Below, one piece after another: positions 1-50,562 of a DNA stretch of 64,000 bases (its first letter is position 1; the number at the start of each line of letters is the position of its first letter). The stretch covers positions 1,687,371-1,751,370 of the forward strand of contig OY282386.1 in assembly GCA_958295945.1 (NCBI GenBank), given 5' to 3'. The translations under genes and the position numbers were made by a program. This DNA is from Candidatus Poribacteria bacterium. GTDB lineage: Bacteria > Poribacteria > WGA-4E > WGA-3G. Under the pieces are notes generated by a model. It made no database searches and was not told the DNA's origin. It was given only the letters and a program-made list of their open reading frames with translations.

Positions 1-52
1 ATCGTGAACTATACTATAAAATAGGACAAAGCACTCTCTATGGAGGAAGATC

Positions 53-898
53 GTGAACCCAAAAGATGTGATGTCATTACTGCAAACCTTAGCGAAATCC
101 CTTTCGCCTTATGTTCCACCGTGTGATAACGGACCTCTGTTGATTAGTGAAGAGGATACTAAGGTTCCAAGAGAACGTCTTAAGACCATAGCTAAACAGT
201 GGATAGAACTTGAAAGAGAAGGGTACGATGCAATTCCTCAAGCGGCACAAGATGCAAGGGAATCCATCGGTATTTATGGAAAACATAGAAGCTATAGGAC
301 ATCTGTAGGAATATCTGTTTCTGATATCTGTGTAGAGATAGAAAACCGTGCTTCCGATACAAAACGTAATCCAGAAGTGAGAGAAATCTTGAAATCCTTA
401 ATCGCAGAACAGAAATTACCCTTCAAGATTTTCAATCGTGGCTTTAGTGTGATTATTATTCCAGAAGACCCGGTACAATATCGTGATAAAGAGATGATTG
501 AACTTGAGACATTGATTGAGAATGAGAACTTAGATGTGCATGTGCGACATTGTGGTTTTAGTTTGGGTCGAATGGATGATAGAGAATATGATAACCCCGA
601 TATCTCGTTTTTGCAAATTCAAGAGATGGCGAAATCTCTACAGGCCGAATTAGAAAAACACAATCTCAAGGTATGTCTGCTCCATGATGGTTTTGTGTTA
701 GAAAAGAAGCGTGAGATAGAAATAGATGTTATCGAAACGAAAGAGTTGGCATTACGACTAAGCGTTATGACAGGGATTAACTTTCATGGTGGAAGCGGGT
801 ATGGTACGAAGTTAAGTGTAGATGAAGTTCCACCCGGATGGACAAATGAGATCAATTGGAAAACTGTAAGAATAAGCACATCCAGTCCTTATTATTAA
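53..898 (+). CDS. Hypothetical protein, member 1 of a tandem paralogue family (unknown function, ~280 aa)
   Basis: GTG start 6 nt after a GGAGG RBS (42-46). Shares motifs with the three downstream paralogues: GPLLISEED near the N-terminus, a duplicated [L/V]xVxHxGFxL motif, LHDGFVLEKKREIEID and a C-terminal GYG...PGWTNEINW. No family recognised. Confidence 0.6.
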   Translation: MNPKDVMSLLQTLAKSLSPYVPPCDNGPLLISEEDTKVPRERLKTIAKQWIELEREGYDAIPQAAQDARESIGIYGKHRSYRTSVGISVSDICVEIENRASDTKRNPEVREILKSLIAEQKLPFKIFNRGFSVIIIPEDPVQYRDKEMIELETLIENENLDVHVRHCGFSLGRMDDREYDNPDISFLQIQEMAKSLQAELEKHNLKVCLLHDGFVLEKKREIEIDVIETKELALRLSVMTGINFHGGSGYGTKLSVDEVPPGWTNEINWKTVRISTSSPYY

Positions 899-936
899 TT
901 CAGTTTAGCAAGTATTCTGCCGAAGGAGAAAGAAAA

Positions 937-1749
937 ATGCATTCTAATGAAGTCCAAGAATTGCTGAGGTCTCTAATCAAGGAAATCGGGTTGCCTATTT
1001 TAGTTTCTGACAAGGGCCCTCTATTGATTTCTGAAGATGACAACAGAACAACGAGATTGCACACAGAAGACATTATCAGACGGTGGAAAGATGATAGAAT
1101 TGCTGAAGAACTAAAGAATTTCACAATTAGTGGTCATTGGTGTCTTTCCAGAGGTAATACCGTATCTGAGGTGTTCAGTGAAGTAGAACTTTTGGCATCA
1201 GATTCAACTCGTATATCGGATGTCAAGAAGGCACTTGGTTCACTAATCAGTGAAAGAAAACTACCTTTTAACATTTTCCACTTATGGTTTACCATCATAG
1301 TTCTTCCAGCTGATCCTACTCAATTCCCGTCAGAGGAAATGGTAGAACTTGAGAATATAATAAACTTGATGCAATCGGAAGGATGCTTCGGTGAAGACGC
1401 TCATAATTACCATGTTCGTCATGCGGGTTTCCGGCTATATTCTAAAGAGGAAGTAATTGATATCCAGTTTTCAAAGGTGCAGCAGGTAGTTCATAGGTTA
1501 CAAGTTCTAGTAGGAAAGCATGGGTTACAGGTTAGGTTAATCCACAACGGTTTTCAATTGGAGAAAGACAGGGAAGTTGAGATAGATATTGCTGAAGCAA
1601 AGGAGTTAGCATTTCGTTTAGCGTGCATGACTAGTGTTAATTATAGCGTCGGTGCTTATGGGATGGGACCAATTATGGGGCGGAAACCTGGTTGGACACA
1701 TCGAGTCAATTGGAAAAATGCACGTGTGAGTTCACCCCGGCCATGGTAA
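937..1749 (+). CDS. Hypothetical protein, paralogue family member 2
   Basis: ATG at 937 lies 8 nt after an AAGGAG RBS. The ORF-track start at 856 overlaps gene 1 and is unlikely. Conserved GPLLISEDD, HAGFRL/IHNGFQLEK and GYGMGP...PGWTHRVNW motifs. Confidence 0.6.
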   Translation: MHSNEVQELLRSLIKEIGLPILVSDKGPLLISEDDNRTTRLHTEDIIRRWKDDRIAEELKNFTISGHWCLSRGNTVSEVFSEVELLASDSTRISDVKKALGSLISERKLPFNIFHLWFTIIVLPADPTQFPSEEMVELENIINLMQSEGCFGEDAHNYHVRHAGFRLYSKEEVIDIQFSKVQQVVHRLQVLVGKHGLQVRLIHNGFQLEKDREVEIDIAEAKELAFRLACMTSVNYSVGAYGMGPIMGRKPGWTHRVNWKNARVSSPRPW

Positions 1750-1801
1750 ATAAGACCGTTAAAATAAGAATCTGAAAATAACATAAGTCTGAGGTGGCAT
1801 T

Positions 1802-2298
1802 ATGCATCCGAATGAAGTTCATCACATACTGAATTCTATAATTCAAGATCATGAAATGGAGATCCGCGTTGGCTGTGGTAAGGTCCTATTGATTGCTGAG
1901 GGAGATTACTTATACAACACATCTGAACGATACTTTGAATTAGAACAGTGTGTAGAAACGATAATTTCAACGGAGGACATCAAAAATATCTATGTTCAAC
2001 ACAGTGGTTTTGCTTTATATTTGAAGATGGACATTCCAGATATAGACTTCTCAAAAACTCAAGAGCTGGCTCACCATTTGCAGTCTAAAATATCGGAAGA
2101 AGGCTTACAAGTAAAATTGCTTCATGAAGGTTTCGTATTGAAAAAGAATAGGAAGATTGAGATAGACTTGGCTGAAACTGAAGAATAGCCTACCGATTAA
2201 CACTTATGACAGGCATAAATTATAGACTCGGAGGATGGACACAAGGCGGGACTTGGGATAATGCAAGATTTCGAGCGGACCTTCCATACCCCTATTGA
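1802..2298 (+). pseudogene. Paralogue family member 3, frameshifted, also lacking the N-terminal ~100 aa of its siblings
   Basis: The ORF stops at TAG 2186-2188 after ...IDLAETEE. The -1 frame continues AYRLTLMTGINYRLGGW...Y* to 2298, which matches the family C-terminus (ELA[L/F]RL..MTGINF/Y...). The sequence gaagaaTAGcctacc is consistent with loss of a single T from gaagaaTTAGCCTAC. Confidence 0.55.
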
Positions 2299-2338
2299 TT
2301 TCGGCAAACGGACATAACAAGTTTAGAACATACAGATA

Positions 2339-2455
2339 ATACCATTTCTATAAATGTTTGTACCATTAACATTTGTTAAGAATCTCTTGAAGGACGGAAA
2401 CACAAACTGGCAGTTTGTGGGACAAAAATACGGCGTTTTCTATTAGAAATGGTAT
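2339..2455 (-). mobile_element. MITE-like element family A, copy A1
   Basis: Reverse complement of the family A consensus, with TIR ataccatttctataaa ... ttctattagaaatggtat. It sits between paralogue genes 3 and 4. Confidence 0.7.
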
Positions 2456-2477
2456 AACATACCTATAAGGAGGAATT

Positions 2478-3308
2478 ATGAACCCTAAAGATGTGAAAGA
2501 ACTATTGGAAACGTTAACTGAAGAGTTTGACCTACATGTTTCGTTCTTCAATCTGGGACCTCTGATTATCAGCGAAGACGATGCCAAAGTGTCAAGAGAA
2601 CGACTTGAAGATGTTGCACAGCAGTGGATGGAGCTTGAGAGAGATGAATATCCTAAACATGTAAAAGAGTGGTTTGAAAAGATGAATGAATCTGTCGGTT
2701 TGCATAAGAACCACAGGAACCACAGCATCTCCATAGGAAAAACTGTATCGGAAATATATGGAGAAGTAGAAAAGCAAGCCTTAGATGCAGAAAGAATTCC
2801 AGAGGTCAGGGATATCTTAAAGGCATTAATTGCAGAACGAGAGTTGCCATTTGAGATATACTATCGTGGTTTCAATATAATAGTCCTTACTGACGATGTC
2901 CGGAACTATAACGATGGAGAAATGCTGGAACTCAAATCCTTGTTAGAAAAGGAGAACTTAGCCGTTCAAGTCCATCATTCAGGTTTTAATATAGAGCGAT
3001 CCGAAGCAGGATCACCCGATATTCTATTTCCACGAGTTCAGGAGTTGACAAGTCGCCTGCAGGATTCATTGGAAAGTCATGGACTAAAGACATATCTACT
3101 ACAGAACGGTTTTACGCTTGAAAAGAAGCAAGAGGACGAGGTCCACGTAGTTGAAGCAAAGGAGTTGGCTATCCGACTACAGTTTATGTCTGGGATTGAA
3201 TATTCAGCGGGTGGATACGGCATGGGACCTGAAAAGGATGTAAAGCCAGGATGGACAAATGAGATCAATTGGAATTCTGTGACGCTGTTTACGAAAAATC
3301 CCTATTAA
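2478..3308 (+). CDS. Hypothetical protein, paralogue family member 4
   Basis: Strong RBS taaggaggaattATG. N-terminus MNPKDVKELL parallels gene 1 (MNPKDVMSLL). Conserved HSGFNI/LQNGFTLEKK and GYGMGP...KPGWTNEINW motifs. Confidence 0.65.
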   Translation: MNPKDVKELLETLTEEFDLHVSFFNLGPLIISEDDAKVSRERLEDVAQQWMELERDEYPKHVKEWFEKMNESVGLHKNHRNHSISIGKTVSEIYGEVEKQALDAERIPEVRDILKALIAERELPFEIYYRGFNIIVLTDDVRNYNDGEMLELKSLLEKENLAVQVHHSGFNIERSEAGSPDILFPRVQELTSRLQDSLESHGLKTYLLQNGFTLEKKQEDEVHVVEAKELAIRLQFMSGIEYSAGGYGMGPEKDVKPGWTNEINWNSVTLFTKNPY

Positions 3309-3340
3309 CCAGAATAATGCTACAATAGGAGGATTTCACG

Positions 3341-3607
3341 ATGACTTATGTAATTTGTGAACCATGCATTGACGTAAAAGACCACATTTGTGCTGAGGTA
3401 TGTCCCGTTGAATGCATTCACCCAATGAAAGACGAAGACCTAGACAAATTTGAAGAAGTAGAACAACTTTACATTGACCCAGAAGAATGCATTGACTGCC
3501 ATGTTTGTGTCCCTGAATGTCCTGTTGAGGCAATCTTTGTAGATGATGAAGTGCCAGAAGAGTGGGAACATTTCATAGAGATAAACGCTGATTACTATCA
3601 AGAATAA
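3341..3607 (+). CDS. fdxA: 7Fe ferredoxin ([3Fe-4S][4Fe-4S], Azotobacter FdI/FdxA type), tandem copy 1
   Basis: Nine Cys in the FdI pattern (CEPC...C..VCPVEC ... CIDCHVCVPECP). The acidic C-terminal extension EVPEEWEHFIEINADYY resembles FdxA-type ferredoxins. RBS aggagg upstream. Confidence 0.75.
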   Translation: MTYVICEPCIDVKDHICAEVCPVECIHPMKDEDLDKFEEVEQLYIDPEECIDCHVCVPECPVEAIFVDDEVPEEWEHFIEINADYYQE

Positions 3608-3659
3608 ACATTTATTTGACAAATTAGTAAAATCGTATATAATAATAGGAGAGCACACA

Positions 3660-3938
3660 GTGACTTATGTAATTTGTGAACCTTGTATTGACGAAAAAGA
3701 CGCTTCTTGTGTAGATGTCTGCCCCTGTGGATCCATAGGACCAATCCCTGAGTATGAAGCAGACGATTTTGAAGGTGTAAACCAACTCTTTATTGACCCG
3801 GATACATGTATTGAATGTGGCGTGTGTGAAGGGGAGTGTCCCGTGGAGGCTATATTCTTTGATGAACATGTTCCCGAAAAATGGGAGCACTACATACAAA
3901 AAAACGCTGATTACTACGAACAACAACCCAGTGTTTAA
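3660..3938 (+). CDS. fdxA: 7Fe ferredoxin paralogue, tandem copy 2 (GTG start)
   Basis: MTYVICEPCIDEKD... has the same Cys framework except VCPCGSIG in place of VCPV[D/E]CIHP. All predicted ligand Cys are retained. RBS aggagag. Confidence 0.7.
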   Translation: MTYVICEPCIDEKDASCVDVCPCGSIGPIPEYEADDFEGVNQLFIDPDTCIECGVCEGECPVEAIFFDEHVPEKWEHYIQKNADYYEQQPSV

Positions 3939-3975
3939 AGTGATAAATTATCTTTCTTGAAAGGAGAACTACAAT

Positions 3976-4239
3976 ATGACCTATGTAATTTGCGAACCTT
4001 GCATTGACGAAAAAGACAGTTCTTGTGTTGATGTGTGCCCAGTAGATTGCATTCACCCACACCCAACAGATGCACCTGACGACTTTGAAGAAGTTGAAAT
4101 GCTCTATATCGATCCGGAAGAATGCATCGATTGTGGCGTGTGTGAACCGGAATGCCCCGTTGAGGCTATCTTCATGGAAGAAGATGTTCCAGAGGAATGG
4201 GAGCATTTCATTGAAATCAACGCTGACTATTTTGAGTAA
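3976..4239 (+). CDS. fdxA: 7Fe ferredoxin paralogue, tandem copy 3
   Basis: MTYVICEPCIDEKDSSCVDVCPVDCIHP...CIDCGVCEPECPVEAIF. RBS aaggagaactacaatATG. Confidence 0.75.
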   Translation: MTYVICEPCIDEKDSSCVDVCPVDCIHPHPTDAPDDFEEVEMLYIDPEECIDCGVCEPECPVEAIFMEEDVPEEWEHFIEINADYFE

Positions 4240-4509
4240 AATAACACCGAATTGACAGAATGTAAGTCAAAACTAAGGGTGTTGTCTAATAACAATTGAT
4301 AGGTGGAAGCTGCAATCATCAGCACTATGCCATACCATTTGTTAGACAGCACCTTTGCTTTTTATTCAATAAATATACAATAATTAACACGATTCCTCTT
4401 GGGACGTGCGCTTTCCGATTTTCAGATAAAATGTAAGTTCTGCGTGGACCAACATAGACCGTATACAGTCACCTTAACCCAAAAAACAAAGTTTGAGGAA
4501 GCATGAACC

Positions 4510-7500
4510 ATGATAAAAAAAGCATTAGCAAAATTCAAAATCACACCAAGTCACACAGAAAACATTGTACAGGAAATATCACATACAAAGCCTGCTGTCC
4601 CATCTATAAGTAAACCATTTGTCCCATGGTTAACTGCTACCTTTTCCTGCGTAGTAGTGCTAATAATGTTAGGTTTTGGAAAAGGCAATAATTTTGCCCT
4701 ATTCCAAGGAGATGCTTTTGCGCAACAAGAAAATCCTGACACTAAAACACAAACTGACAATGCACAACTACAATTTAACCATGCAGATGAGGAAAATAAA
4801 TTGGAAAATTATCCACAATGGAATCTGCCAAAAGGAGCGAAGATGCGATTAGGCAAGGGAGGACTGGGAACAATTCAGTTTTCACCAGATGGAACACAGA
4901 TGGTAGTGGGTAGTAATACCGGTGTCTGGATTTACGATGTGGAAACAGGTAAAGAGATTTCATTATTACTCGGAATGAGTAGAGCAATTGCGTATTCACC
5001 TGATGGTCGCTTTATCGCATCTGCTGGTGGAGACCCAGTTACCAGTTTTGGTGGGAGTCCACTTGAAACAGGAATTGAGATACGGGAAGTTACTACAGGA
5101 AGAAAAATCTCGTTACAAGATGAGTTGCCTCCTGCGGAAGCGTTGCGGTTCACAAATGATAGCAAAACGCTTGTATGTCTCAGCATGTCAAGAGAAAACA
5201 TATATTGGATTGATGTGGAAACCGGTGAATACACAACGACAAATATAGGAAAAAGACAGGGGTATATGCATCTTGAAAGTTACGCACTTACAGAAGATAA
5301 AATCGCTATCGGAAGTAATGATGGAAAAATTGAGTTGTGGGACACTACGACAGGTAAGAAGTTGACAACGCTTAGGAAATTTGGGAAAGAAGTTAGCTTA
5401 CCAGAATATTTCACTAAGACAAACAAAGCACTGACTATGGAATTCTCTTCAGACAGAACAAAACTCGCTACTGGAAATTTAGATACCACAGTACAAATAT
5501 GGGATACAACCACTGGAGAAGAATTAATTGTTCTGCAAAAGCCTATAGAAGGGAACATGTGGAGTGTATCAACGGAAAATGGAAAAGAGATCGTAAAAAA
5601 CCCAATGAAGAACGAGAGGAACAGTAGACCGTCTTCATTGGCATTCTCTCCAGATGGTTCACTGCTTGCTTGTGGTAGTGAAGATAGCACTATCAAACTG
5701 TGGAATAGTCTTACAGGCGAATTTATTGCTACCTTCACAGGTCATTTCAGCATTGTTGAACAATTAACTTTTTCACTAGATGGCAAAACACTTGCAAGTG
5801 GCAGTGCTGATGGTACAGTCCGATTTTGGGATATTGAGACAAGAAAACCAGTACAGAACAAGATTACTGGACACATGTGGATAAGATCGACAGCTGCATT
5901 AAATGATGGTACAAGTTTTGTGAGTGTATCAGACGAAGGTATAATCACTGTTTGGGATCTGAAGAATACTCAAAAAACAACTTCCATAATCAAAGCAGTA
6001 CTTGAGGAACATTTGTATTGGAATACTTACAGAACGTATGTGTTCACACCAGATGGAACCAAACTGCTCAATCACGGTAAACAAACCGACCCAACTAAAC
6101 CAAACTTTAATGATTGGGTGCTACGTCTGAATGATGTTAACACAGGACGTGAGTTAAAGTCTTTCCCATGGGGTACTGGAGAGGTGTTTTCGCCTGATGG
6201 AAAAATCTTAGCACAAGGTGCTGTCAACAAAATCCACTTATTGAATATAGAAACTGGAGAAGAACGTGAAATAATTACATCAGACCACGATGAAGATTCC
6301 GATGAAGACAAACCTTTTATCAGGACTATAGCATTTTCACCTGATGGAGAAAAGATTGTTAGTGGCACGTCGGGTGGACATGTTCAATTGTGGGATGTGG
6401 AAACTGGAACTGAGTTAAGTTCTTTCTTTCCAGAATTGACAGATAACGATAAAAGACGAGAACCTATACATCAGTTTGTATTTTCTTCAGACGGTTCGCT
6501 AATTGCTGTCCGCAGTACAAAACGGATACGTATCATAGGAAGAGCGAAACAACCTCACTTTAAGGAATTGCTTTTTTCTGAAGAGGAAGATGGAGATACA
6601 TTCATCTTTTCACCAGATAATAAAGTGCTTATCGTCGGTTACTGGGGTGGGAAAATTCGGTTATGGGATGTAGTGACCGGAGATAAACTTATCACACTTG
6701 ATGGACATTCCGTGGCTGTGGCAGATTTGATATTTTTACCAGATCATAAAACGCTTATGAGTGTCGGAGGCGGTAATATTCTACTGTGGGACTGGAATCA
6801 AGTAATCAGGAGTGCATACGCAGAGAATCAAGAACTTGAACCTGATGTGAACCTTGCCACTGAAGAACAATCAGCAGAAAATGTGTTACAAATCCTTGAA
6901 CATTCAGCACAAAAGCCAAAAATCTCTGATCATGTCCTGTGGAATGGTGAGATATATCTCGCTAATGAATGGTATGAACACGCGTATGGGGAATTTGTGA
7001 AATACTTATCCGCTGCAGATTATGAGGGAGGACAGAATGTCATTACACCACCAAGTTTTCACCGTCATTTATTCGCAAAAATTGGCAAAATCGGTAAAGA
7101 TATTGAAGATAAAGACGGTTTCGCTGACCTGGTAACTAAATTGATTGACGCATTTGCAGATAGTCGGAGCATCCAATTGAATGCACACCTTGTTCTCGCT
7201 AAATTCTATCACGATAATGGAATGGATGAGAAAGCAGATGAGCATATTGAGAAAATAGATATCCTAATGAGAAACCTTACGACAGAAAGTCTAAGTCTTC
7301 AGTTAAATGCCTACCTCAGTCTAATTACATATTATCGGGATAAAGGCATGAATGAAAAGGCAGATATGTATATCCAAAAAATTGATAATATGATTGCTGA
7401 ACTTGACCCAAATCAACCCAATAGCCTGAGACTTCGGATTGGTACACATTTCGGTTTAGCCGAATATTATCGTGAATATGGTATGCATGAACAGGCAGAT

Positions 7501-8034
7501 GAGCATATTCAAAAAACTGGTTTCATCACAGAAGATGCATGGATGGAACTTGGACCGTTTGACAACGCAGGCGGGATCGGCTTTGATACTGTATACATAC
7601 CCGAAGACATCACGGAAATTGACCTCACTACAAAATATGATGGACAGAATGGACTAGTCAGTTGGAAAAAGTTCAGCGATACGGGATTAAACGGTTATAT
7701 CCATCTCGGTGAAAAGAATGTTGATTGGCAAGTCTTCTACACCTTCGCTACCGTTGCCTCTCCTGATGAACGTGAAGTCCAGCTAAGGTTTGATAGTGAC
7801 GACCAAGGAAAATTATGGCTAAACGGCAAAGAGGAATTCACACATACCAAAACCTTTGCTGTTAGACTTGATACATATATCATTCCTGTCACACTCAAAC
7901 AAGGTAAAAACAGTATCCTCGTAAAGGTGTGTAATGAAGAAGGGGCATGTGCTTTTATCCTCCGCATTACAGACAAAAACGGGCAGCCTTTTGATGATTT
8001 GATAATCAATAAAGCACCACAACAGAAAGAGTAA
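4510..8034 (+). CDS. Membrane-anchored WD40-repeat (beta-propeller) protein with a TPR-like helical repeat region and a C-terminal beta-sandwich-like domain
   Basis: N-terminal TM helix LTATFSCVVVLIMLGFG. Many S/FSPDG...LASGS.DGT[I/V].LWD repeats. Three YY(R/H)D.GM.E.AD.(Y/H)I.K helical repeats. C-terminal LWLNGKEEF...NSILVKVCNEEG region. Confidence 0.7.
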   Translation: MIKKALAKFKITPSHTENIVQEISHTKPAVPSISKPFVPWLTATFSCVVVLIMLGFGKGNNFALFQGDAFAQQENPDTKTQTDNAQLQFNHADEENKLENYPQWNLPKGAKMRLGKGGLGTIQFSPDGTQMVVGSNTGVWIYDVETGKEISLLLGMSRAIAYSPDGRFIASAGGDPVTSFGGSPLETGIEIREVTTGRKISLQDELPPAEALRFTNDSKTLVCLSMSRENIYWIDVETGEYTTTNIGKRQGYMHLESYALTEDKIAIGSNDGKIELWDTTTGKKLTTLRKFGKEVSLPEYFTKTNKALTMEFSSDRTKLATGNLDTTVQIWDTTTGEELIVLQKPIEGNMWSVSTENGKEIVKNPMKNERNSRPSSLAFSPDGSLLACGSEDSTIKLWNSLTGEFIATFTGHFSIVEQLTFSLDGKTLASGSADGTVRFWDIETRKPVQNKITGHMWIRSTAALNDGTSFVSVSDEGIITVWDLKNTQKTTSIIKAVLEEHLYWNTYRTYVFTPDGTKLLNHGKQTDPTKPNFNDWVLRLNDVNTGRELKSFPWGTGEVFSPDGKILAQGAVNKIHLLNIETGEEREIITSDHDEDSDEDKPFIRTIAFSPDGEKIVSGTSGGHVQLWDVETGTELSSFFPELTDNDKRREPIHQFVFSSDGSLIAVRSTKRIRIIGRAKQPHFKELLFSEEEDGDTFIFSPDNKVLIVGYWGGKIRLWDVVTGDKLITLDGHSVAVADLIFLPDHKTLMSVGGGNILLWDWNQVIRSAYAENQELEPDVNLATEEQSAENVLQILEHSAQKPKISDHVLWNGEIYLANEWYEHAYGEFVKYLSAADYEGGQNVITPPSFHRHLFAKIGKIGKDIEDKDGFADLVTKLIDAFADSRSIQLNAHLVLAKFYHDNGMDEKADEHIEKIDILMRNLTTESLSLQLNAYLSLITYYRDKGMNEKADMYIQKIDNMIAELDPNQPNSLRLRIGTHFGLAEYYREYGMHEQADEHIQKTGFITEDAWMELGPFDNAGGIGFDTVYIPEDITEIDLTTKYDGQNGLVSWKKFSDTGLNGYIHLGEKNVDWQVFYTFATVASPDEREVQLRFDSDDQGKLWLNGKEEFTHTKTFAVRLDTYIIPVTLKQGKNSILVKVCNEEGACAFILRITDKNGQPFDDLIINKAPQQKE

Positions 8035-8405: not shown

Positions 8406-10613
<2,208 letters not shown>

Positions 10614-10630
10614 ACCATGATTTGATTATA

Positions 10631-10652
10631 GGCGGGGTCTCTGTACCCCGCC
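10631..10652 (+). terminator. Rho-independent terminator-like hairpin after katG
   Basis: ggcggggtctctgtaccccgcc is a GC-rich inverted repeat followed by ttTgTcTT. A related motif (ggcggggcacagagaccccgcc) abuts the MITE B copy at 48603. Confidence 0.5.
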
Positions 10653-10690
10653 TTTGTCTTGCGCAGAATGTCTTATACCATTTCTAATTA

Positions 10691-10805
10691 ATACCATTTC
10701 TAATAGAAAACGCCGCATTTTTGTACCACAAACTGCCAGTTTGTGCAGTCCTTCAAGAGATTCTTAACAAATGTTAATGGGATAAACATTTATAGAAATG
10801 GTATA
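10691..10805 (+). mobile_element. MITE-like element family A, copy A2, plus a 5'-half copy at 10806-10865
   Basis: ~115 bp with terminal inverted repeats ATACCATTTCTAAT...ATAGAAATGGTAT and a central palindrome ACAAACTGcCAGTTTGT. Other copies lie at 2339-2455 (-), 20415-20528 (-), 21592-21813 (expanded) and 56956-57069. Confidence 0.75.
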
Positions 10806-10890
10806 ATACCATTTCTAATAGAAAACGCCCCATTTTTGTACCACAAACTGCCAGTTTGTGCAGTATTCAAAAGGTTTTCATAACAACAAA

Positions 10891-11282
10891 CCGCACAATC
10901 TGGCAGAATGTGCTACAACCGCACAATCTGGCAGAATGTGCTACAACCGCACAATCTGGCAGAATGTGCTACAACCGCACAATCTGGCAGAATGTGCTAC
11001 AACCGCACAATCTGGCAGAATGTGCTACAACCGCACAATCTGGCAGAATGTGCTACAACCGCACAATCTGGCAGAATGTGCTACAACCGCACAATCTGGC
11101 AGAATGTGCTACAACCGCACAATCTGGCAGAATGTGCTACAACCGCACAATCTGGCAGAATGTGCTACAACCGCACAATCTGGCAGAATGTGCTACAACC
11201 GCACAATCTGGCAAAATGTGCTACAACCGCACAATCTGGCAAAATGTGCTACAACCGCACAATCTGGCAGAATGTGCTACAA
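10891..11282. repeat. Perfect tandem array, 14 x 28 bp (ccgcacaatctggcagaatgtgctacaa)
   Basis: 392 bp made of exactly 14 units, with only G>A variants in units 12-13. It contains AATCTGgCAGAATG, which is related to the CTGcCAG palindromes of other repeats. All three forward frames are open, so it is non-coding and the overlapping ORF-track entries 10856-11450 are spurious. Confidence 0.9.
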
Positions 11283-11349
11283 TTGGCGAAGGTATTGTCA
11301 ATTAGAAATGGTATTAGAATTGGTATCATCATTTTAACACGGAGGAGTA

Positions 11350-12786
11350 ATGAAAAAACGAACTCATGTCAGTTGTATAATTATATTGTTTTGTATTTTA
11401 CAGAGTTTCGTCATAGATTCAACTTTCGGTCAAGACGACTCTTTGGTTGAAAAGGTCCTTGAGAATCACAAGGAAACCCTAAAACAGAAAAAAGTAAAAA
11501 ATGTTCTGCCGGATGCATTAAAAGAATTCAAGGAATCTGAAATTCATGCAGTTTTGATCCAGAAAGATCTAACCCAGTTGTTTGCGAACCCTGAAGATTT
11601 AGAGGAAATAACAGATGAAATAGATGAAGAATTCATAACATTACTCAAAGAAGATAACGGAGTTCAAGCAATATTTAATGATGCAGACTTCCTCAGTCTG
11701 ATGCAAGACAAAGATGCAATCGCAGAACTTGCAAGACTTATCAAAGCAGATTGGTTGGAATTTAGGATAAGAAATGTTCACATCCTGCCGCTTTTGTTAA
11801 TAGTCGTAGTGTGCCTTTTGGCACTGGGCAAAGGAGCAGATTGGCTTGTTGACGAGGCGGTGGTGTTATCTTCGCAGTGGGGGTTAGGCAAGGCTGTTAT
11901 CGGGGCAACGATTGTTAGTATTGGGACAACAACACCCGAAGCAGCGGTTTCCGTACTATCGGCTATACAAGGAGAACCGGGACTTGCTCTCGGCAATGCA
12001 GTCGGTTCAATTATCTGTGATACAGGACTGATTTTAGGGTTGGCTTCACTGATTGCCCCTTTATCGTTCAATAGAGAGTTAGCATCCCGTCTGTCCAATG
12101 TTCAGGTGAGTGCTGGAATTCTCTTGGTATTAGCCTGTTTTCCTTGGTCATCTCCAGTAAAAGTCTTTACTCAAGGCGGGACTCTCTATCAGGGCATAGG
12201 CATTGTTTTCGTTGTTCTGTTAGGACTCTATATATGGCAATCTATCCGATGGGCAGGTTCAATCACGTCTGAATCTGAAACTGTAACTGATGAAGAAACA
12301 GAACACAAAAGATCAAGCACGTTTGTCACCCTACTTAAACTTATCGGGTCAATTGCTATTGTTGTTGTCTCTGCACAAATCCTCATCCCAACAGTGAAGA
12401 CACTTGCAATAAGATTTAATGTTCCGGAGGAGATCGTTGCTGCAACGCTTGTTGCATTTGGCACATCGTTGCCGGAACTTGTAACAGCGATCACAGCAGT
12501 CAGACGCGGGCATGGTGAATTAGCAGTCGGCAACATAATCGGTGCAGATATTTTGAATGTGCTTTTTGTCGCGGGTGTATCAGCAGCTGCTACACCTAAC
12601 GGTCTACAAGCATCAGGCAAATTTTTCCAATTCCTATTTCCTGCAATGGTGATTATTCTGATCGTATTCCGAATTGGTGTCTTCGTTTCAGGAAGTCAAC
12701 TGAAACGTCCGTTTGGGGTTGTCCTAGTGGCAATTTATATTTTAGTGACAGTCCTAAGTTATATTTTTTCTGTAGATATGCATTAG
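11350..12786 (+). CDS. CaCA-family cation/Ca2+ antiporter (YrbG-like) with an extra N-terminal ~140-aa domain
   Basis: Two alpha-repeat signatures, GATIVSIGTTTPE and VAFGTSLPELVTAI, are each followed by multiple TM helices. The N-terminal signal-like hydrophobic segment and acidic region are atypical. RBS cggaggagtaATG. Confidence 0.75.
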   Translation: MKKRTHVSCIIILFCILQSFVIDSTFGQDDSLVEKVLENHKETLKQKKVKNVLPDALKEFKESEIHAVLIQKDLTQLFANPEDLEEITDEIDEEFITLLKEDNGVQAIFNDADFLSLMQDKDAIAELARLIKADWLEFRIRNVHILPLLLIVVVCLLALGKGADWLVDEAVVLSSQWGLGKAVIGATIVSIGTTTPEAAVSVLSAIQGEPGLALGNAVGSIICDTGLILGLASLIAPLSFNRELASRLSNVQVSAGILLVLACFPWSSPVKVFTQGGTLYQGIGIVFVVLLGLYIWQSIRWAGSITSESETVTDEETEHKRSSTFVTLLKLIGSIAIVVVSAQILIPTVKTLAIRFNVPEEIVAATLVAFGTSLPELVTAITAVRRGHGELAVGNIIGADILNVLFVAGVSAAATPNGLQASGKFFQFLFPAMVIILIVFRIGVFVSGSQLKRPFGVVLVAIYILVTVLSYIFSVDMH

Positions 12787-26546: not shown

Positions 26547-29500
26547 CTATTTCCGTATCAACATCTTGCGTGTAGCAGTGAAATCACCTGCGGTTAATGT
26601 ATAAAAGTAGATTCCGCTTGCAACGCGTTCACCTTGGGCATTTTTGCCATCCCAATGGGCTGCACGGTTGCGATGCTCATATACTCCAGCAGCCTTATGA
26701 CCAAACGACAACGTTCTTATCAATATGCCATTGACCGCATAGATGCGTACCGTTACTTCTGCAGGTTTTGCTAAGTGATACGGTATCCACGTCTCTGGGT
26801 TGAAAGGATTCGGATAGTTAGCCAAGAGTGTTGTCTTTTCTGGCAACATGGAGGCAAGCAGCTGCTCAAGTACAATGATTCCTCTTTGGAATGTTTCATC
26901 TCTGTTTGTTCGTTGCTTTGCTTCGTCAATCCATCTTTGCAAGTTCTCTGCTGTCAAAACAGCTGCAGGTGCAGTAGGTGTGTTTTCTAATGCTGCCATG
27001 ACCAATGCTAAATCATCACTGTTAACAACACCATCTCCGTTTACGTCTGGATTCGGATATGTACCTTTAGATGGGATTGTGCCGATAGTTGCAGCGACTA
27101 ACACGAGGTCTTCTACATCAACGATACCATCCGCATTCACATCTTCTGGAACATGGTTCTCTGGCAAGACGACATGTGCGATAAAGGTAAGTTGAGAATT
27201 AATACCTTCTGCAGTCACATTAACAGTGATAGTGATAGTACCAAGTTTCCATCCAAATCGAAGAAAAGTTTGTGCTCTACCGGCGGCATCGGTCGTAACG
27301 GTAGTATCAGTCAGTTCTGCATCACCATCGGTTATAGAAAATGTAACCTTCACTCCCTCTTTTGGATTCCCATTAGCATCACGATATTCCACAACGAAGG
27401 GGGCAGGGAGTGTCCTCCCCACAAGTTCTTCTTGTTTATCACCAGATATTATGAGGAATTCTGGGTGCGTAATATTGTCAAAAGATACTACAATTCCTCT
27501 TGCCTGCATAGCAGGGATGTGTGTCCGTATTGCTTCATTATTAAGTGGATTGTTTCTAATATCTAGCCCCGTGCTATCCCACTGCGTTCCTGTTAGGTTT
27601 AATGCTAACAGAGGTGACATATCTGATATGTTATTGTAGCGAAGATGCAGATGAGTCAAGTTTGTCAACGCTGATAGTGCAGAAGTATCTGATATGTTAT
27701 TGTTGAAAAGATATAGCTGAGTCAGGTTTGTTAACCCTAATAGTGCAGATATATCTGAAATGTTGTTGCGGCCAAGCCTCAGCAAAGCCAAGTTTGTCAA
27801 CTCTGACTCTGATAGTGCAGAAATATCTGATATGTTATTGTCATCAAGATACAGCCGAGTCAGGTTTGCCAATCCCGACAGCGCAGACACATCCGATATG
27901 TTGTTGCTGTCCAGATTCAACCAATCCAGTTTGGATGCATGTTCAAGGCCGGTAAGGTCTTGAATGTCGGCGTTTCGGGCATCAAGTCTGGTTAATTCCA
28001 ACAAATCTCCTGCCTTGAGTTTTGCGTTCTTCGGTTTGTTAAGGGTTTCTGCAATTTTGGTGTGGAGGTTCACGTCCGGAATATGTACAAGCATGTCCCC
28101 ATCAATAGCCGTGATCGTAAAGTTTAGCGGCTGTGGAATCTCGGTGACTGTAGCACTGACAGTGTTCTCACCGGGCTCGGGTCCCAGTGTGAGCGTTGTA
28201 GCAGCTTTGCCATTGAGACTGCTAATCGCTTTTGATGTCGAGCGATGACCACCTAAAGTTGTGAGCGTGAAATTGACCGGCACCCCCGCAAACGCAACGC
28301 CCTTCTGATCTTGGACTTGGACGATTACTTGACGTGGGGTGCCAGCGACTCCAGATGGACCTGGAATATTAATAAGCGTTGTAGGCGTTCGGGTGTCAAA
28401 CACTACATCCACACCGTGGGAACGCAGGGTTGGAATAGTGGTATAGAGTGACGGATAACTCAGCAGGTTTCCGCGTAGATGCAACGTTTTCAATTCGGTG
28501 AGTTCCACAAGAGGCTCAACCTCTGAGATTTTATTGTTTTCAAGGGACAATGTCCCTAATTGTGTGAGTTCTACCAAAGGCGCAATATCAGAGAGATTAT
28601 TGTTGTCAAGAGATAGTGTCGTCAGTTGCGTAAGTCCCGTTAGCGAATCTATATTGGATAGGTTGTTGCTATTAAGCTTCAAACTTGTTAGATTAGATGC
28701 ATGTTGCAATCCTGTGAGGTTGCTAATACCAGCGTTGTTAGCGGTAAGGGATGTCAGAGCCAACATATCTCCCATAGTAATAGGTGCATCGGTCGGTTTA
28801 CCGGATGTTTCCGCTATCTTGGCACTCAGATTAGCATCGGAAAGTGTCACGGTTGAATCAAGTGAGATACTTGTTACTGTAAACAGGACAGATTGAGAAA
28901 CGTTTGGTGCAGAAGCTTGGACGGTCATTGTGCCGCCCGTTTCTCCAAGTGTCAATCGAGTTTGTGCATTGCCAGCCTTATCAGTTTTTGCCGTTGTGGC
29001 ACTGAGTTCTCCACTGCCTTTAGTGATTGAAAATGTTACAGGAACCTCCGCGAATGGGCGATTGGACTGATCTCGGACTTGGACAACGTATGGAAGTGGT
29101 AATTCTGAATTAGTTATCGCTTGCTGCGCATCACCAGATATTTTTAGGAGTTTCGTTGGTGTGCGCTGGCTATACTGGACCTCAACCCCTTTTGCCTGCA
29201 TAGCAGGAATATGGGTGTTGATAGCAACGTAGCTAAGGGGATTGTTCCAAAGATATAGCCCCGTGCTATCCCACTCTGTTCCTATAAGGTTTAATTTCAC
29301 CAAGGGTGATACATCCGAGATGTTATTGTTGTGAAGCTGCAGTTGCGTTAGGTTTGTCAATCCTGATAGTGCAGATATATCTGATATGTTATTGTTGGCA
29401 AGAAGCAGCGAATTCAAGTTTGTCAATCCTGACAACGCAGACACATCCGAGATGTTATTGTTGTGAAGCCACAGTTGCGTTAGGTTTGTCAATCCTGATA

Positions 29501-32500
29501 GTGCAGATATATCTGATATGTTATTGTTGACAAGATCCAGCGAATTCAAGTTTGTCAATTCTGATAGCGCAGACAAATCAACCAATATCGTGTGAGAGAG
29601 GTTCAGGTATGTCAATGCGGTTAGCCCTATAAGCGGTGACAAATTCGATACTGTATTACTGTTGACAGTTCCCTCCCCCTCAATGTACTCAGCCCCAAGG
29701 TTCAAGGAACTCAGGTTGGACGCATATTCAATACCGGTAAGGTCTTGAATGTTGGCGTTTTGTGCGTCAAGTCTGGTTAATGCCAACAAATCTCCAGCAT
29801 TGAGTTTTGCGTTTTTGGGTTTGTTGAGGGTTTCCACTATTTTGGCATAGAGGTTCACATCGGGAATATGCACAAGCGTGTTCCCATCAATAGCCGTGAT
29901 CGTAAAGTTTAGCGGCTGTGGAATCTCGGTGACTGTAGCACTGACAGTGTTCTCACCGGGCTCGGGTCCCAGTGTGAGCGTTGTAGCAGCTTTGCCATTG
30001 AGACTGCTAATCGCTTTTGATGTCCAGCGATGACCACCTGAAGTTGTGAGCGTGAAATTGACCGGCACCCCCGCAAATGCAACGCCTTTCTGATCTTGGA
30101 CTTGGACGATTACTTGTAGTGTGGCACCCGCAACTCCAGGTGTTCCTGGAATGTTAATAAGTGTTGTCGGGGTTCGGGTGTCAACCACTACATCCACACC
30201 GTGGGAACGCAGGGTCGGAATAGTGGTATAGAGTGACGGATAACTCAGCAGGTTTCCGTGTAGACGCAACGTTTTCAAGTCGGTGAGTTCCACAAGAGGT
30301 GCTACATCGGATAGTTTATTGTTTTCAAGAGACAGTGTCTCTAATTGTGTGAGTTCTACCAAAGGCGCAATATTAGAGAGATTATTGTTGTCAAGTGATA
30401 ATGTCGTCAGTTGCGTAAGTCCTGTTAGCGAATCTATATTGGATAGGTTGTTGCTATTAAGCTTCAAGCTTGTTAGATTAGATGCATGTTGCAATCCCGT
30501 GAGGGTGCTAATACTGGCATTGTTAGCAGTAAGTGATGTCAACGTCAACATATCGGCTACAGTAATAGATGCGTCGGTCGGTTTACCGAGGGTTTCTATT
30601 ATCTTTGCGGTAAGGTTCGTATCGGGCAGGTGCACGAATGAAGTGGGAAGGATCGCTGTTACCGTAAATTGTATGGGCTGCGAAATCTTCACTGCTGTCA
30701 CGCGGATGGTTGTTTCCCCCTCGGTTTGTCCTAACGTAAAACGTGCTTTTGCCCTACCTTTAGCATCCGTTGTGGTGTTAGTGGTGCTGAGTTTTCCACC
30801 GCCCTTGGTAATTGAAAATGTTACAGGAACCTCCGCGAATGGGCGATTGGACTGATCTCGGACTTGGGCAACAAATGGAAGTGGTAATTTTGTATTGGTC
30901 AAGGCTTGTTGTGTGTCGCCAGATATCTTTAGGAGTTTCGTTGGTGTGCGCTGGCTATACTGGACCTCAACCCCTTTTGCCTGCATAGCAGGGATATGGG
31001 TGTTGATAGAAACGTAGCTAAGGGGATTGATCCAAAGATATAGCCCCGTGCTATCCCACTGTGTTCCTATAAGGTTTAATTTCACCAAGGGTGATACATC
31101 CGAGATGTTATTGTTGTGAAGCTGCAGTTGCGTTAGGTTTGTCAATCCTGATAGTGCAGATATATCTGATATGTTATTGTTGGCAAGAAGCAGCGAATTC
31201 AAGTTTGTCAATCCTGACAACGCAGACACATCCGAGATGTTATTGTTGTGAAGCCACAGTTGCGTTAGGTTTGTCAACTCTGATAGCACAGACACATCTG
31301 AAATGTTGTTGCTGCCAAGATCCAGCCGAGTCAGGTTTGTCAATCCTGATAGCACAGACACATCTGAAATGTTGTTGCTGCCAAGATTCAGCCGAGTCAG
31401 GTTTGTCAATCCTGATAGTGCAGATATATCTGAAATGTTGTTGTTGGCAAGATACAGCGAACTCATATTTTTGAGTTCTGATAGCACTGATATATCTGAT
31501 ATGTTATTGTTGTTGAGATTCAGCGAAGTCAGGTTTGTCAACTCTGACAACGCAGACACATCTGAAATGTTGTTGCCGGAAAGATGTAACCAATTCAGTT
31601 GTGTCAACTCTGATAGCACAGACACATCTGAAATGTTGTTGCTGCCAAGATCCAGCCGAGTCAGGTTTGTCAATCCTGATAGCGCAGAAACATCTGATAT
31701 GGTGTTGTTGTTAAGCACCAACCAAGTCAGTTGTGTTAACTCTGACAGTGGCGACACATCTGAAATATTGGTGTTCCAAAGATTCAGCGAAGTCAGGTTT
31801 GTCGACTCTGACAACGCAGACAGATCTGATATGTTATTGTTGTTGAGATTCAGCGAAGTCAGGTTTGTCAACTCTGACAACGCAGACAGATCCAATACCG
31901 TATTGCTGTTGACATATCCCTCGCCCTCAATATACTCAGTTCCAAGGTTCAACGATCTCAGATTGTGCGCGTGTTCAAGCCCGGTGAGGTCTGTTATCCC
32001 GCTATTTGGCGTATCAAGTTTCCATAAGTTTAGCATAGAGTGCGTCGTGAGAGCTTGGGTTGAAGATAGATTGAGAGCTTGCCGCACTGCCAACGCTAAA
32101 GTAGCGTCCGGAATTGAAACAACTTGGGATGGAGGAAGTAGAGAGCTGATATCAATTGGAAATACTCGGCTTGTTATAAAACTTCCAAACACATCAATTA
32201 TCTGGAGTTCTACGACGTTATTTTTGGGTGGCAAACCGGTAGTGATAAATTCAATCGTGCTGCTTTGGCCGTTTAGCAGCTTACAACCAAGCAAACCTCC
32301 TCCAAGTCCACGTGGTTCTGTTTCGGGCGTAAGCAATAAGGCTTGATGGAGCCCATCGGGATCAGTCACTTCAAAACGGAGGCGGATCGTATTGGGAGGC
32401 GCAGCGAGACTGGGTGGAAGCATCTTGATCGTTCCGGATTGATTCTTAGAAACAGTTTGGTCTGTATTAAAGGCAGGGTTCATATTCAACACTTCCGCGG

Positions 32501-33092: not shown

Positions 33093-33150
33093 GAATACTC
33101 TCCTCTATTCTGTATTCAGAATTATGGTTCTGTTTAGACAAATTCCGGCT

Positions 33151-49764: not shown

Positions 49765-49806
49765 ATATGATTGATATGAATCCATTTGTAACTCTGGAGG
49801 TAATCA

Positions 49807-50562
49807 ATGCAAAACGGAATCACTCGGCTATACAATGCAATTTGGTATACACAAGTTGGACGTGCCCTTGAACAGAAAGATTTAGATAAAGAAAATGCGG
49901 AAAACACACAGGATTTGTTTGCTGAAGAGCTCAACAACCGTGAAAATATTCAACCCAGTAAACGTGGACATAGTCTACTGAGTAAATCAGAAGTTTTACA
50001 CGATTCCAAAGTTAACAGCAAAACATCCGGAATAGTAACTCAGAAAATCCTTATAGATAATCTGGATGCTGTACGACAAGTTTTTGAAGACATTATCAAT
50101 GACAAAAGGAATAATATTCAACGATACAAACAAGCAATTGGTCATTTAATCGCCCTTGTTGAACAGAAAAAGAACTCACTGAAAAGCATTATAGATGATT
50201 TGGATAAGTTAGAACAGATGAAGATGGCTGTAACTGCAGAGTCCAAGAATATTTCCTTAGAACTAAAAGAATCTGGTTTATCAGATAGCGAGATAGAACA
50301 ACATCCAGATTATGCACGATGCATCAACTCATTTAATGATTTCGATTCTACCGTCAACGAGAAAAACGTTCGTGTTGACGAACTTGAACAGGATATTGAA
50401 CGTGCAAAGCAAGATATTGAATATCATAAATCTAATATCACACAACTTCACCGTGATGTAGAAAAGATAAAGACTGAACAATCTGAAGCGATCGCAGACC
50501 TTATTACTGCTCGTGAAAAAGGGAAAATTAATGAAGTTTTATCGGATATCAAAGTAGAATGA
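49807..50562 (+). CDS. PspA/IM30 (Vipp1, ESCRT-III superfamily) protein, paralogue 1
   Basis: MQNGITRLYNAIWYTQVGRALEQ... is all-helical. The PspA-like N-terminal amphipathic helix and FxR motif align with E. coli PspA MGIFSRFADIVNANINA. About 50% identical to the downstream paralogue over the core. RBS ggagg. Confidence 0.6.
   Translation: MQNGITRLYNAIWYTQVGRALEQKDLDKENAENTQDLFAEELNNRENIQPSKRGHSLLSKSEVLHDSKVNSKTSGIVTQKILIDNLDAVRQVFEDIINDKRNNIQRYKQAIGHLIALVEQKKNSLKSIIDDLDKLEQMKMAVTAESKNISLELKESGLSDSEIEQHPDYARCINSFNDFDSTVNEKNVRVDELEQDIERAKQDIEYHKSNITQLHRDVEKIKTEQSEAIADLITAREKGKINEVLSDIKVE

What the first reader, a model, noticed from the sequence alone, without database searches (positions are those of the whole stretch)
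1..4239. Tandem amplification: four paralogues of an unknown ~280-aa family, one frameshifted, followed by three tandem FdxA-type 7Fe ferredoxin genes
Seven small genes sit in a row on one strand, each with its own RBS. They belong to only two families. The 280-aa family has an internal duplicated [L/V]xVxHxGFxL motif and a conserved GYGMGP...PGWTNEINW C-terminus, and I cannot place it in any known family. FdxA-type 7Fe ferredoxins are usually single-copy, so three tandem copies with slightly different cluster-binding loops (CPVECIHP, CPCGSIGP, CPVDCIHP) are unusual. Linkage of a multiplied electron carrier with a multiplied unknown family suggests a redox partner relationship.
Basis: partly seen in the sequence, partly recalled or inferred. 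Interest (0 to 1): 0.6.

Follow-up and report, generated by a model that had tools for sequence, protein, structure and literature searches.

The report
Sigma-factor-controlled orphan protein array with ferredoxins
The seven genes are the downstream part of a gene cluster found only in the uncultured phylum Poribacteria, in which a dedicated ECF sigma factor appears to switch on a row of repeat-built proteins of unknown fold, always followed by 7Fe ferredoxin genes. The cluster is conserved and undescribed, but what it does remains unknown.

Summary
On the + strand, window 53-4239 holds three intact paralogues and one decayed paralogue of an orphan family, followed by three 7Fe ferredoxin genes.

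The window cuts the cluster. Matching contigs show an ECF sigma factor and two more paralogues immediately upstream.

In 16 of 16 distinct Poribacteria loci the order is: (TPR-redoxin) - ECF sigma - invariant "T1" paralogue - 1 to 8 further paralogues - 1 to 3 ferredoxins. I reached these loci from the family, from the ferredoxins or from the sigma factor. The flanking genes differ between loci.

A 29-nt ECF-type promoter motif, GTAACCTTTT-N10-TTrCATTCTTA, sits before the sigma operon and again 19-22 nt before T1. This points to autoregulation and to the array as the sigma factor's direct target.

The family has no homologue outside Poribacteria (profile search of 1.84 billion proteins), no Pfam, NCBIfam, PHROG or PADLOC hit, and no conserved cysteine. 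Each protein is built from at least four homologous ~35-aa helix-hairpin repeats. AlphaFold2 models are confident, and Foldseek finds no PDB match.

The paralogues are ancient, not a recent amplification. Ferredoxins 2 and 3 have their own invariant sigma-70 promoter.

A redox-partner role is neither shown nor excluded. I think a stress-inducible sigma regulon of binding or regulatory proteins is more likely.

The parts
1..52 (+). End of a 340-nt spacer that separates this gene from the upstream paralogue (T4, outside the window). Bases 1-6 are the right arm of an 18-nt hairpin. GGAGG ribosome-binding site at 43-47.
   Evidence: In L001 the spacer (7238-7577) holds a MITE/REP-like insertion with a perfect 20-nt inverted pair.
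53..898 (+). Paralogue of type T6 (281 aa) of the orphan helix-hairpin repeat family.
937..1749 (+). Paralogue of type T5 (270 aa).
   Evidence: AlphaFold2 model pLDDT 89.9, pTM 0.86.
1802..2298 (+). Decayed type-T2 paralogue (pseudogene). It has an internal deletion of about 100 aa and a frameshift (apparently a 1-base deletion) at 2186-2188.
   Evidence: The same premature stop codon is present in L001, L002 and L003.
2478..3308 (+). Second type-T6 paralogue (276 aa, no cysteine).
   Evidence: AlphaFold2 model pLDDT 87.7, pTM 0.83.
3341..3607 (+). Ferredoxin fdx1 (88 aa, 7Fe-type Cys pattern). It starts 32 nt after the last paralogue, with no promoter in between.
3616..3643 (+). Sigma-70 consensus promoter TTGACA-16-TATAAT (12 of 12 matches) in front of fdx2.
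   Evidence: The TTGACA hexamer and the ATAAT core of the -10 hexamer are invariant in all 7 loci compared.
3660..3938 (+). Ferredoxin fdx2 (92 aa). This is the CPCxSI variant, with Cys23 in place of Cys25.
   Evidence: It is hypervariable between strains.
3976..4239 (+). Ferredoxin fdx3 (87 aa). It is the slowest-evolving copy and the closest to the ferredoxins of genomes that lack the array.
4265..4366 (+). Long hairpin ending in a U-rich stretch. It is the likely transcription end of the cluster.
   Evidence: -32 kcal/mol, z-score -3.84, 0 of 200 shuffles folded as well.
4510..8034 (+). Recurrent neighbour, probably a separate unit: a membrane-anchored WD40 protein (1174 aa). Its orthologues in other loci carry an N-terminal ECF sigma domain.

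Best explanation
Window 1-4366 is the distal part of a roughly 7-kb cluster specific to Poribacteria. The order is: (TPR-redoxin gene) - ECF sigma factor - T1 paralogue - variable array of further paralogues - 1 to 3 ferredoxins of the 7Fe type.

Proposed mechanism:
1. The sigma factor recognises an ECF-type promoter (GTAAC-N16-CATTC, within a 29-nt conserved block) that occurs twice per locus.
2. One copy lies before the sigma factor's own operon, giving positive autoregulation.
3. The other copy lies 19-22 nt before the T1 start codon and drives the array. In this genome it also drives fdx1, which has no promoter of its own.
4. Fdx2 and fdx3 are additionally transcribed from a constitutive sigma-70 promoter.

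The family members are soluble, acidic and free of recognisable cofactor sites. They are built from four or five helix-hairpin repeats plus a variable helical insert, so they look like scaffolds for binding a ligand or a protein rather than enzymes. T1 is invariant, sigma-proximal and heads each sub-operon. It is the best candidate for the sigma factor's cognate soluble regulator, or for the adaptor of a hetero-complex formed with the other paralogues.

The recurring redoxin, ferredoxin and (here) KatG neighbours point to a redox or oxidative-stress signal.

Shown: gene content, synteny, promoter motif, repeat architecture and the restriction to one phylum.
Inferred: that the motif is this sigma factor's promoter, the role of T1, the binding function and the nature of the stress.
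For: - Synteny holds in 16 of 16 distinct loci, reached from three independent entry points, with at least five different upstream and six different downstream contexts.
- The sigma gene is a true ECF sigma factor (TIGR02937, 83 bits against a cutoff of 42.9). It forms a tight orthologue group of 82 clusters at 53% identity or more, with the next hit at 31%.
- The motif GTAACCTTTT-N10-TTrCATTCTTA is found in every locus exactly before the sigma or redoxin-sigma operon and before T1. A third copy precedes the duplicated T1-like gene in L007 and L010. It is absent from ferredoxin loci that lack the array.
- Each T1 gene has AAAGGAG and its ATG right after the motif.
- T1 is always the first family gene and is highly conserved.
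- The repeat architecture is supported by profile comparison.
- Two independent confident AlphaFold2 models show the same helix-hairpin units.
- The best, though weak, structural resemblances are ligand-binding tandem ACT and GyrI-like domains.
- There is no conserved Cys and the proteins are acidic.
- The sigma-70 promoter before fdx2 is invariant.
- A terminator-like hairpin follows fdx3.
- The ECF classification paper notes that undetected soluble anti-sigma variants probably exist (PMC7826278).
Against: - There are no expression data and no transcription start sites.
- The motif lacks the CGT -10 element common in ECF promoters.
- T1 has no anti-sigma domain and no ZAS motif. A second T1-like copy inside long arrays fits an adaptor role at least as well as an anti-sigma role.
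- In the window's genome a MITE-like insertion and a hairpin separate T1 and T4 from the window genes, so read-through from the T1 promoter is uncertain here.
- The structural resemblances are far below significance (TM-score 0.32 or less).
- All loci come from one phylum, so shared ancestry inflates the synteny count.
Confidence: 0.5

Rival explanations
1. One reading: the family consists of ferredoxin-dependent redox enzymes or direct electron-transfer partners, multiplied together with their electron carrier.
For: - The family neighbours ferredoxins in 16 of 16 loci.
- Only 32 nt separate the last paralogue from fdx1.
- The derived fdx1 and fdx2 types were found only in array loci (2 of 2 look-ups).
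- One His, and a second nearly invariant His, are conserved in the repeat hairpins.
Against: - The family has no conserved Cys and no hit to any Pfam or NCBIfam model, redox families included. One copy has no Cys at all.
- Both partners are acidic.
- The HxGF motif recurs in every repeat. By its strand and turn position it looks like a structural signature.
- Paralogue number (2-9) does not track ferredoxin number (1-3).
- Fdx2 and fdx3 have an independent sigma-70 promoter.
- The same ferredoxin subfamily works without the array in related genomes.
Confidence: 0.12
2. The ferredoxin linkage is inherited synteny without functional coupling. The ferredoxins are the lineage's housekeeping 7Fe ferredoxins, and the sigma-plus-array module happened to settle next to them in a common ancestor.
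For: - An invariant sigma-70 promoter sits in front of fdx2.
- Fdx3 is 92-98% conserved among the three-ferredoxin loci and about 80% identical to ferredoxins of array-less genomes, which have their own TTGACA/TATGAT promoter.
- All loci belong to one phylum.
Against: - Both flanks of the block have been reshuffled many times, and the paralogue order has changed, yet the ferredoxins have never been separated from the array.
- Minimal loci have a single ferredoxin and no detectable sigma-70 promoter.
- A broken ferredoxin gene inside the L004 array suggests that ferredoxin was duplicated together with array segments.
Confidence: 0.25
3. The paralogues are subunits of a hetero-oligomeric structural assembly, such as a scaffold, a cage or compartment cargo. 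T1 would be the nucleating subunit, and the sigma factor would merely control production.
For: - Several ancient paralogue types are retained side by side, and each sub-operon is headed by a T1-type gene with its own promoter copy.
- The extreme N-terminal amphipathic helix MNPNDVxELLxxLI is conserved in all types. From my own knowledge it resembles microcompartment encapsulation peptides.
- The repeat sheet architecture suits tiling.
Against: - The N-terminal helix is modelled as an integral part of repeat 1 (pLDDT above 90) and has no flexible linker.
- No shell or capsid genes appeared among the genes examined in the window or in the loci.
- Minimal loci have only two members.
- The monomer models have high pTM, so they look self-contained.
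Confidence: 0.13

Closest known systems
ECF sigma factor operons with an autoregulated promoter and an adjacent target or anti-sigma gene (group IV sigma-70 family; classification in PMC7826278)
   Same: - A two-domain sigma factor (regions 2 and 4).
- The same promoter-like motif, with AAC in the -35 region, lies before the sigma operon and before the next gene.
- The gene immediately downstream is conserved and co-oriented.
   Different: - The downstream gene has no recognisable anti-sigma domain, transmembrane helix or ZAS motif.
- It belongs to a multi-paralogue array.
- The cluster always ends in ferredoxin genes.
- The classification paper mentions neither ferredoxin nor Poribacteria.
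Thermus/Mycobacterium/Bacillus-type 7Fe ferredoxins (FdxA; NCBIfam NF045480 FdxA_Actino)
   Same: - The N-terminal TYVIxEPC sequence.
- The Cys pattern Cx7Cx3CP plus CxxCxxCx3CP.
- The acidic ...VPExW... tail.
   Different: - An insertion of about 10 residues between the two cluster motifs.
- No C-terminal extension.
- Scores of 80-95 bits, below the equivalog cutoff of 125.
- Three diverged types. Fdx2 has the fifth Cys shifted (CPCxSI).
Tandem ACT domains (regulatory subunit of aspartate kinase; 2zho, 6mx1, 2dt9) and GyrI-like/SOUL ligand-binding domains (3b49/5x5m lin2189, 2gov)
   Same: Repeated helix plus hairpin units (beta-alpha-beta-beta type) that build one sheet covered by helices on one face. 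These were the top Foldseek hits for two independent models.
   Different: - E-values are only 0.004-0.1, TM-scores 0.32 or less and rmsd 11-18 A.
- There is no sequence or Pfam relationship.
- The family has four or five units plus a helical insert rather than two units.
- This is a resemblance of building blocks, not of fold.
Multi-paralogue sensor sets attached to a sigma-factor pathway (RsbR paralogues of the Bacillus stressosome; from my own knowledge)
   Same: Several paralogues share a conserved scaffold and a variable segment, and are encoded next to a stress sigma factor.
   Different: There are no STAS or kinase/phosphatase partners, the sigma class is different, and there is no evidence of co-assembly. 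This is an analogy only.

Membership tests
7Fe (3Fe-4S + 4Fe-4S) FdxA-type ferredoxin | Cys ligand pattern C-x7-C-x3-C-P ... C-x2-C-x2-C-x3-C-P on a Fer4 fold. | tested here: met
   Cys at 9, 17, 21 and at 50, 53, 56, 60 in all three proteins. Fer4 and Fer4_7 score above their Pfam cutoffs.
7Fe (3Fe-4S + 4Fe-4S) FdxA-type ferredoxin | Score above the NCBIfam equivalog cutoff (NF045480 FdxA_Actino, 125 bits; NF045490 FdxA_Protbact, 135 bits). | tested here: not met
   80-95 bits against NF045480 and 67-80 bits against NF045490. The shortfall comes from a 10-residue insertion and a missing C-terminal extension. The proteins are FdxA-like but are not equivalogs.
7Fe (3Fe-4S + 4Fe-4S) FdxA-type ferredoxin | Actual cluster content: one [3Fe-4S] and one [4Fe-4S]. 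| not testable with these tools
   This needs EPR or Moessbauer spectroscopy on purified protein.
ECF (group IV) sigma factor (gene upstream of the window, L001 5066-5677) | Only sigma regions 2 and 4, with TIGR02937 above its cutoff. | tested here: met
   Sigma70_r2 at 64.8 bits and Sigma70_r4_2 at 31.3 bits. TIGR02937 at 83.3 bits against a cutoff of 42.9.
ECF (group IV) sigma factor (gene upstream of the window, L001 5066-5677) | Autoregulated promoter with an AAC -35 element and a spacer of about 16-17 nt. | tested here: inconclusive
   GTAAC-N16-CATTC is conserved before the sigma operon and before T1 in 16 loci. There is no CGT -10 element and no transcription start data.
Class I anti-sigma factor (anti-sigma domain, ZAS) | N-terminal anti-sigma domain, or an H-x3-C-x2-C motif, in the gene downstream of sigma. 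| tested here: not met
   T1 has no Pfam or NCBIfam hit and no conserved Cys. This lowers the claim 'T1 is a known anti-sigma'. It does not lower the claim 'T1 acts on sigma'.
ACT / GyrI-like ligand-binding domains | Significant sequence-profile or fold match. | tested here: not met
   No Pfam hit for any of 41 members. Best Foldseek E-value 3.6e-3, TM-score 0.32 or less.
2H phosphoesterase superfamily (considered because of the duplicated His motif) | Two H-x-T/S-x motifs on a duplicated alpha+beta lobe. | tested here: not met
   The motif here is H-x-G-F at a hairpin turn. The 2H structure 1fsi scored only E 0.58.
Recent tandem gene amplification | Copies are closer to each other than to genes in other genomes. 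| tested here: not met
   Window copies are 39-50% identical to each other. Copy 2478-3308 is 56-79% identical to its orthologues elsewhere. Five paralogue types recur across loci.
Phage or anti-phage defence protein | Match to PHROGs, PADLOC or viral structures. | tested here: not met

The most novel reading that the evidence does not exclude
The helix-hairpin repeat family is a new class of soluble regulators of an ECF sigma factor. T1 would be the anti-sigma factor and the other paralogues would be sensor or decoy modules with variable inserts. Their state would be set by the dedicated ferredoxins fdx1 and fdx2, so that the cell's ferredoxin redox poise is read out transcriptionally: a ferredoxin-gated sigma switch.
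Probability: 0.1. Interest if true: 0.8.

Novelty: new variant of a known kind. Interest (0 to 1): 0.5.

Why it matters
Poribacteria are uncultured, widespread sponge and marine symbionts, and little of their regulation is understood. This cluster offers three things.

- **A self-contained, experimentally portable unit.** It combines a sigma factor, a sharply defined promoter motif and a small target regulon, and could be tested in a heterologous host.
- **A protein family with no relatives.** It has no sequence relatives outside the phylum and no match among solved structures, yet it is modelled with high confidence. That makes it a candidate new repeat fold.
- **A strictly conserved link between an ECF sigma regulon and specialised 7Fe ferredoxins.** The ECF classification I consulted mentions no such link.

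If T1 proves to be a soluble anti-sigma factor, it would add a new class to a protein group known to be under-detected.

Tried and rejected
- **Sequence homology.** Pfam, NCBIfam, PHROGs, PADLOC and PDB-sequence searches of the family found only scattered noise (AfaD, Fin, Vps41, PSP1, HSCB_C, Mnd1). The HSCB_C hits were tempting because of the Fe-S context. They cover a single helix at E 0.002-0.02 in 5 of 41 members, so I rejected them.
- **Complex modelling.** Sigma and T1 could not be modelled because they lie outside the window.
- **GGGAACTCCGAT.** It first looked like an ECF -35 box but is a dispersed REP/MITE-like repeat.
- **Metagenome scan with the promoter motif.** It gave one chance hit in a contig that looks Bacteroidetes-like, so no extra regulon members were found.
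- **Minus-strand unknown proteins upstream in L016-L020.** They are secreted proteins, not family members.
- **The 251-280-aa gene trio at window 48922-51460.** It is unrelated (PspA/IM30-like).
- **Cys6 of the ferredoxins.** It is not specific to array-linked copies.
- **Literature.** Searches found nothing on this cluster.
- **Rfam.** No hit anywhere in the window.


Full report
**1. What is in the window**

Seven co-oriented ORFs with SD-like sequences occupy window 53-4239 on the + strand.

| Window coordinates | Product |
|---|---|
| 53-898 | family paralogue, 281 aa |
| 937-1749 | family paralogue, 270 aa |
| 1802-2298 | decayed family copy |
| 2478-3308 | family paralogue, 276 aa |
| 3341-3607 | fdx1, 88 aa |
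| 3660-3938 | fdx2, 92 aa |
| 3976-4239 | fdx3, 87 aa |

- The intact paralogues are 39-50% identical to one another.
- The decayed copy lacks about 100 internal residues compared with intact 266-270-aa relatives. It also carries a frameshift at 2186-2188, by eye a 1-base deletion.
- The same premature stop codon is present in three independent metagenome assemblies, so it is not an assembly error. The window and L002 are identical over 1750-2480.
- The ferredoxins show the Cys pattern of Thermus/Mycobacterium-type 7Fe ferredoxins. Their best NCBIfam hit is FdxA_Actino at 80-95 bits. That is below the equivalog cutoff of 125 because of a 10-residue insertion and a missing C-terminal tail.

**2. 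The window truncates the cluster**

The exact protein of 2478-3308 occurs on contigs that extend upstream. Directly before window position 1 lie three more genes on the same strand:

- an ECF sigma factor (L001 5066-5677; TIGR02937 at 83 bits against a cutoff of 42.9);
- a divergent paralogue that I call T1 (236 aa);
- a further paralogue, T4 (240 aa).

A 340-nt spacer holding a MITE/REP-like insertion separates T4 from the first window gene.

**3. The family**

- A word-indexed search of 5.8 billion proteins found 42 clusters. Every hit that carries a name is Candidatus Poribacteria.
- An exhaustive HMMER profile search of 1.84 billion representatives found only 13 proteins, all members or fragments.
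- Pfam, NCBIfam, PHROGs, PADLOC and PDB sequences give nothing coherent.
- The proteins are soluble and acidic (pI 4.8-7.0) and have no conserved cysteine.
- Profile-profile comparison of sub-alignments shows at least four homologous ~35-aa units. Each is a helix followed by a beta-hairpin with the h-x-h-x-H-x-G-F-x-h signature.
- A helical insert at residues 37-104 varies between subtypes.
- AlphaFold2 with the family alignment gives confident models for two subtypes: pLDDT 87.7 with pTM 0.83, and pLDDT 89.9 with pTM 0.86. Both show the same helix-hairpin units.
- Foldseek finds nothing significant in PDB or BFVD.
- The recurrent weak top hits are a GyrI-like protein (3b49) and tandem ACT domains of aspartokinase regulatory subunits, at TM-score 0.32 or less.

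**4. Ancient paralogues, not a recent amplification**

Clustering of all members from eight loci gives five types:

| Type | Length (aa) | Note |
|---|---|---|
| T1 | 233-243 | always next to sigma |
| T6 | 276-281 | |
| T5 | 270 | |
| T4 | 240-250 | |
| T2 | 266-270 | the window pseudogene is a decayed T2 |

- Types recur across genomes in changing orders and numbers, from T1-T6 or T1-T4 up to nine genes.
- The three ferredoxins are also old paralogues with their own orthologues.
- Fdx3 is 92-98% conserved among the three-ferredoxin loci. Fdx1 is 78-89% conserved and fdx2 70-85%.

**5. Conserved cluster**

I reached 16 distinct loci by three routes:

- from the family;
- from fdx1-type and fdx2-type ferredoxins;
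- from the sigma factor.

Every one reads sigma - T1 - 1 to 8 paralogues - 1 to 3 ferredoxins.

- The flanks differ, with at least five upstream and six downstream contexts.
- The sigma factor forms a tight orthologue group: 82 clusters at 53% identity or more, with the next hit at 31%.
- Related genomes whose ferredoxin is the 85-aa T/A-type have no array or sigma factor next to it. They carry one or two tandem copies.

**6. Regulatory signals**

A 29-nt block, ttTTATGTAACCTTTT-N10-TTrCATTCTTA, has ECF-like geometry (GTAAC-N16-CATTC). It occurs in every locus at exactly these places:

- before the sigma gene, or before the TPR-redoxin gene(s) when these precede sigma;
- in the sigma-T1 spacer, 19-22 nt before the T1 ATG, with AAAGGAG in between;
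- a third time before the duplicated T1-like gene that heads a second sub-array in L007 and L010.

It is absent from the ferredoxin loci that lack the array and from the window itself. I read it as the sigma factor's own promoter. That implies autoregulation and makes the array the direct target.

Other signals:

- A perfect sigma-70 consensus promoter lies at window 3616-3643, before fdx2. Its TTGACA hexamer and the ATAAT core of its -10 hexamer are invariant in all seven loci compared.
- Fdx1 has no promoter and starts 32 nt after the last paralogue.
- A long hairpin with a U-rich end follows fdx3.

**7. Interpretation**

The best-supported picture is an ECF-sigma-controlled, probably stress-inducible module. 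Its products are helix-hairpin repeat proteins without recognisable cofactor sites, which most likely bind a ligand or another protein.

- T1 is either the sigma factor's soluble feedback regulator or the adaptor or head subunit of a complex with the other paralogues.
- Redoxin genes sit in the sigma operon, ferredoxins close the cluster, and KatG lies nearby in this strain. These neighbours suggest a redox or oxidative signal, but that is inference.
Nothing in the proteins supports it, and two of the three ferredoxins are constitutively promoted.

**8. Limits**

- All loci come from one phylum.
- There are no expression data.
- Sigma, T1 and fused constructs could not be modelled.
- A metagenome scan with the motif gave only a chance hit.
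- The literature held nothing on this cluster. The ECF classification paper mentions neither ferredoxin nor Poribacteria, but it notes that undetected soluble anti-sigma variants are likely (PMC7826278).

Noticed in passing
window 60380-60391, 62363-62374, 62504-62515; L001 5014, 7322-7341/7464-7483, 16013: A dispersed REP/MITE-like element with core GGGAACTCCGAT. There are 3 copies in the window against 0.19 expected by chance. One copy, with a perfect 20-nt inverted pair, is inserted in the spacer just upstream of window position 1.
   Followed up: partly
window 4510-8034: A membrane-anchored WD40 protein (1174 aa). Its counterparts in L009, L021-23 and L028 are 1246-1394 aa and begin with a complete ECF sigma domain (a sigma::TM::WD40 fusion). 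The window and L004 copies lack that domain.
   Followed up: partly
window 8424-12786 compared with L001/L003 16278-20416: Strain-level difference in gene content right after the WD40 gene. The window and L002 carry a KatG-type peroxidase and a Na/Ca exchanger. L001 and L003 carry a 650-aa coiled-coil protein, an OmpA-domain protein and others.
   Followed up: no
window 3660-3938: Fdx2 is hypervariable between strains. There are 29 differences in 279 nt between L001 and L002/window (pS 0.26), while neighbouring genes are nearly identical. The window copy (CPCGSIGP) is also the most divergent of its type. This may be a recombination tract.
   Followed up: partly
L004 13464-13725: A broken ferredoxin gene (two overlapping ORF fragments) sits inside the paralogue array. 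This suggests the array grew by duplicating a segment that included a ferredoxin.
   Followed up: no
L005 7085-8401, L007 5688-8463, L008 929-2356, L020 6203-7519, L021 4991-6283, L026 5636-6955, L028 7260-8573: TPR plus Redoxin/AhpC-TSA proteins (430-475 aa, sometimes two in tandem) lie between the conserved promoter motif and the sigma gene in 9 of 16 loci. They are therefore probably part of the sigma operon. They are absent in the window's genome.
   Followed up: partly
window 49807-55264: Two tandem paralogues (251 and 278 aa), of which only the second reaches the PspA/IM30 Pfam cutoff, followed by a 602-aa protein with no Pfam hit and an AAA ATPase (618 aa).
   Followed up: no
window 26547-35826 (- strand): Two giant secreted proteins (2181 and 891 aa). 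They combine a reprolysin-like metallopeptidase, LRR, Big_1, dockerin and a T9SS-type C-terminal sorting domain.
   Followed up: no
window 2380-2400: A perfect 8-bp palindrome, ACAAACTG-G-CAGTTTGT, in the spacer before the last paralogue. Its function is unknown.
   Followed up: no
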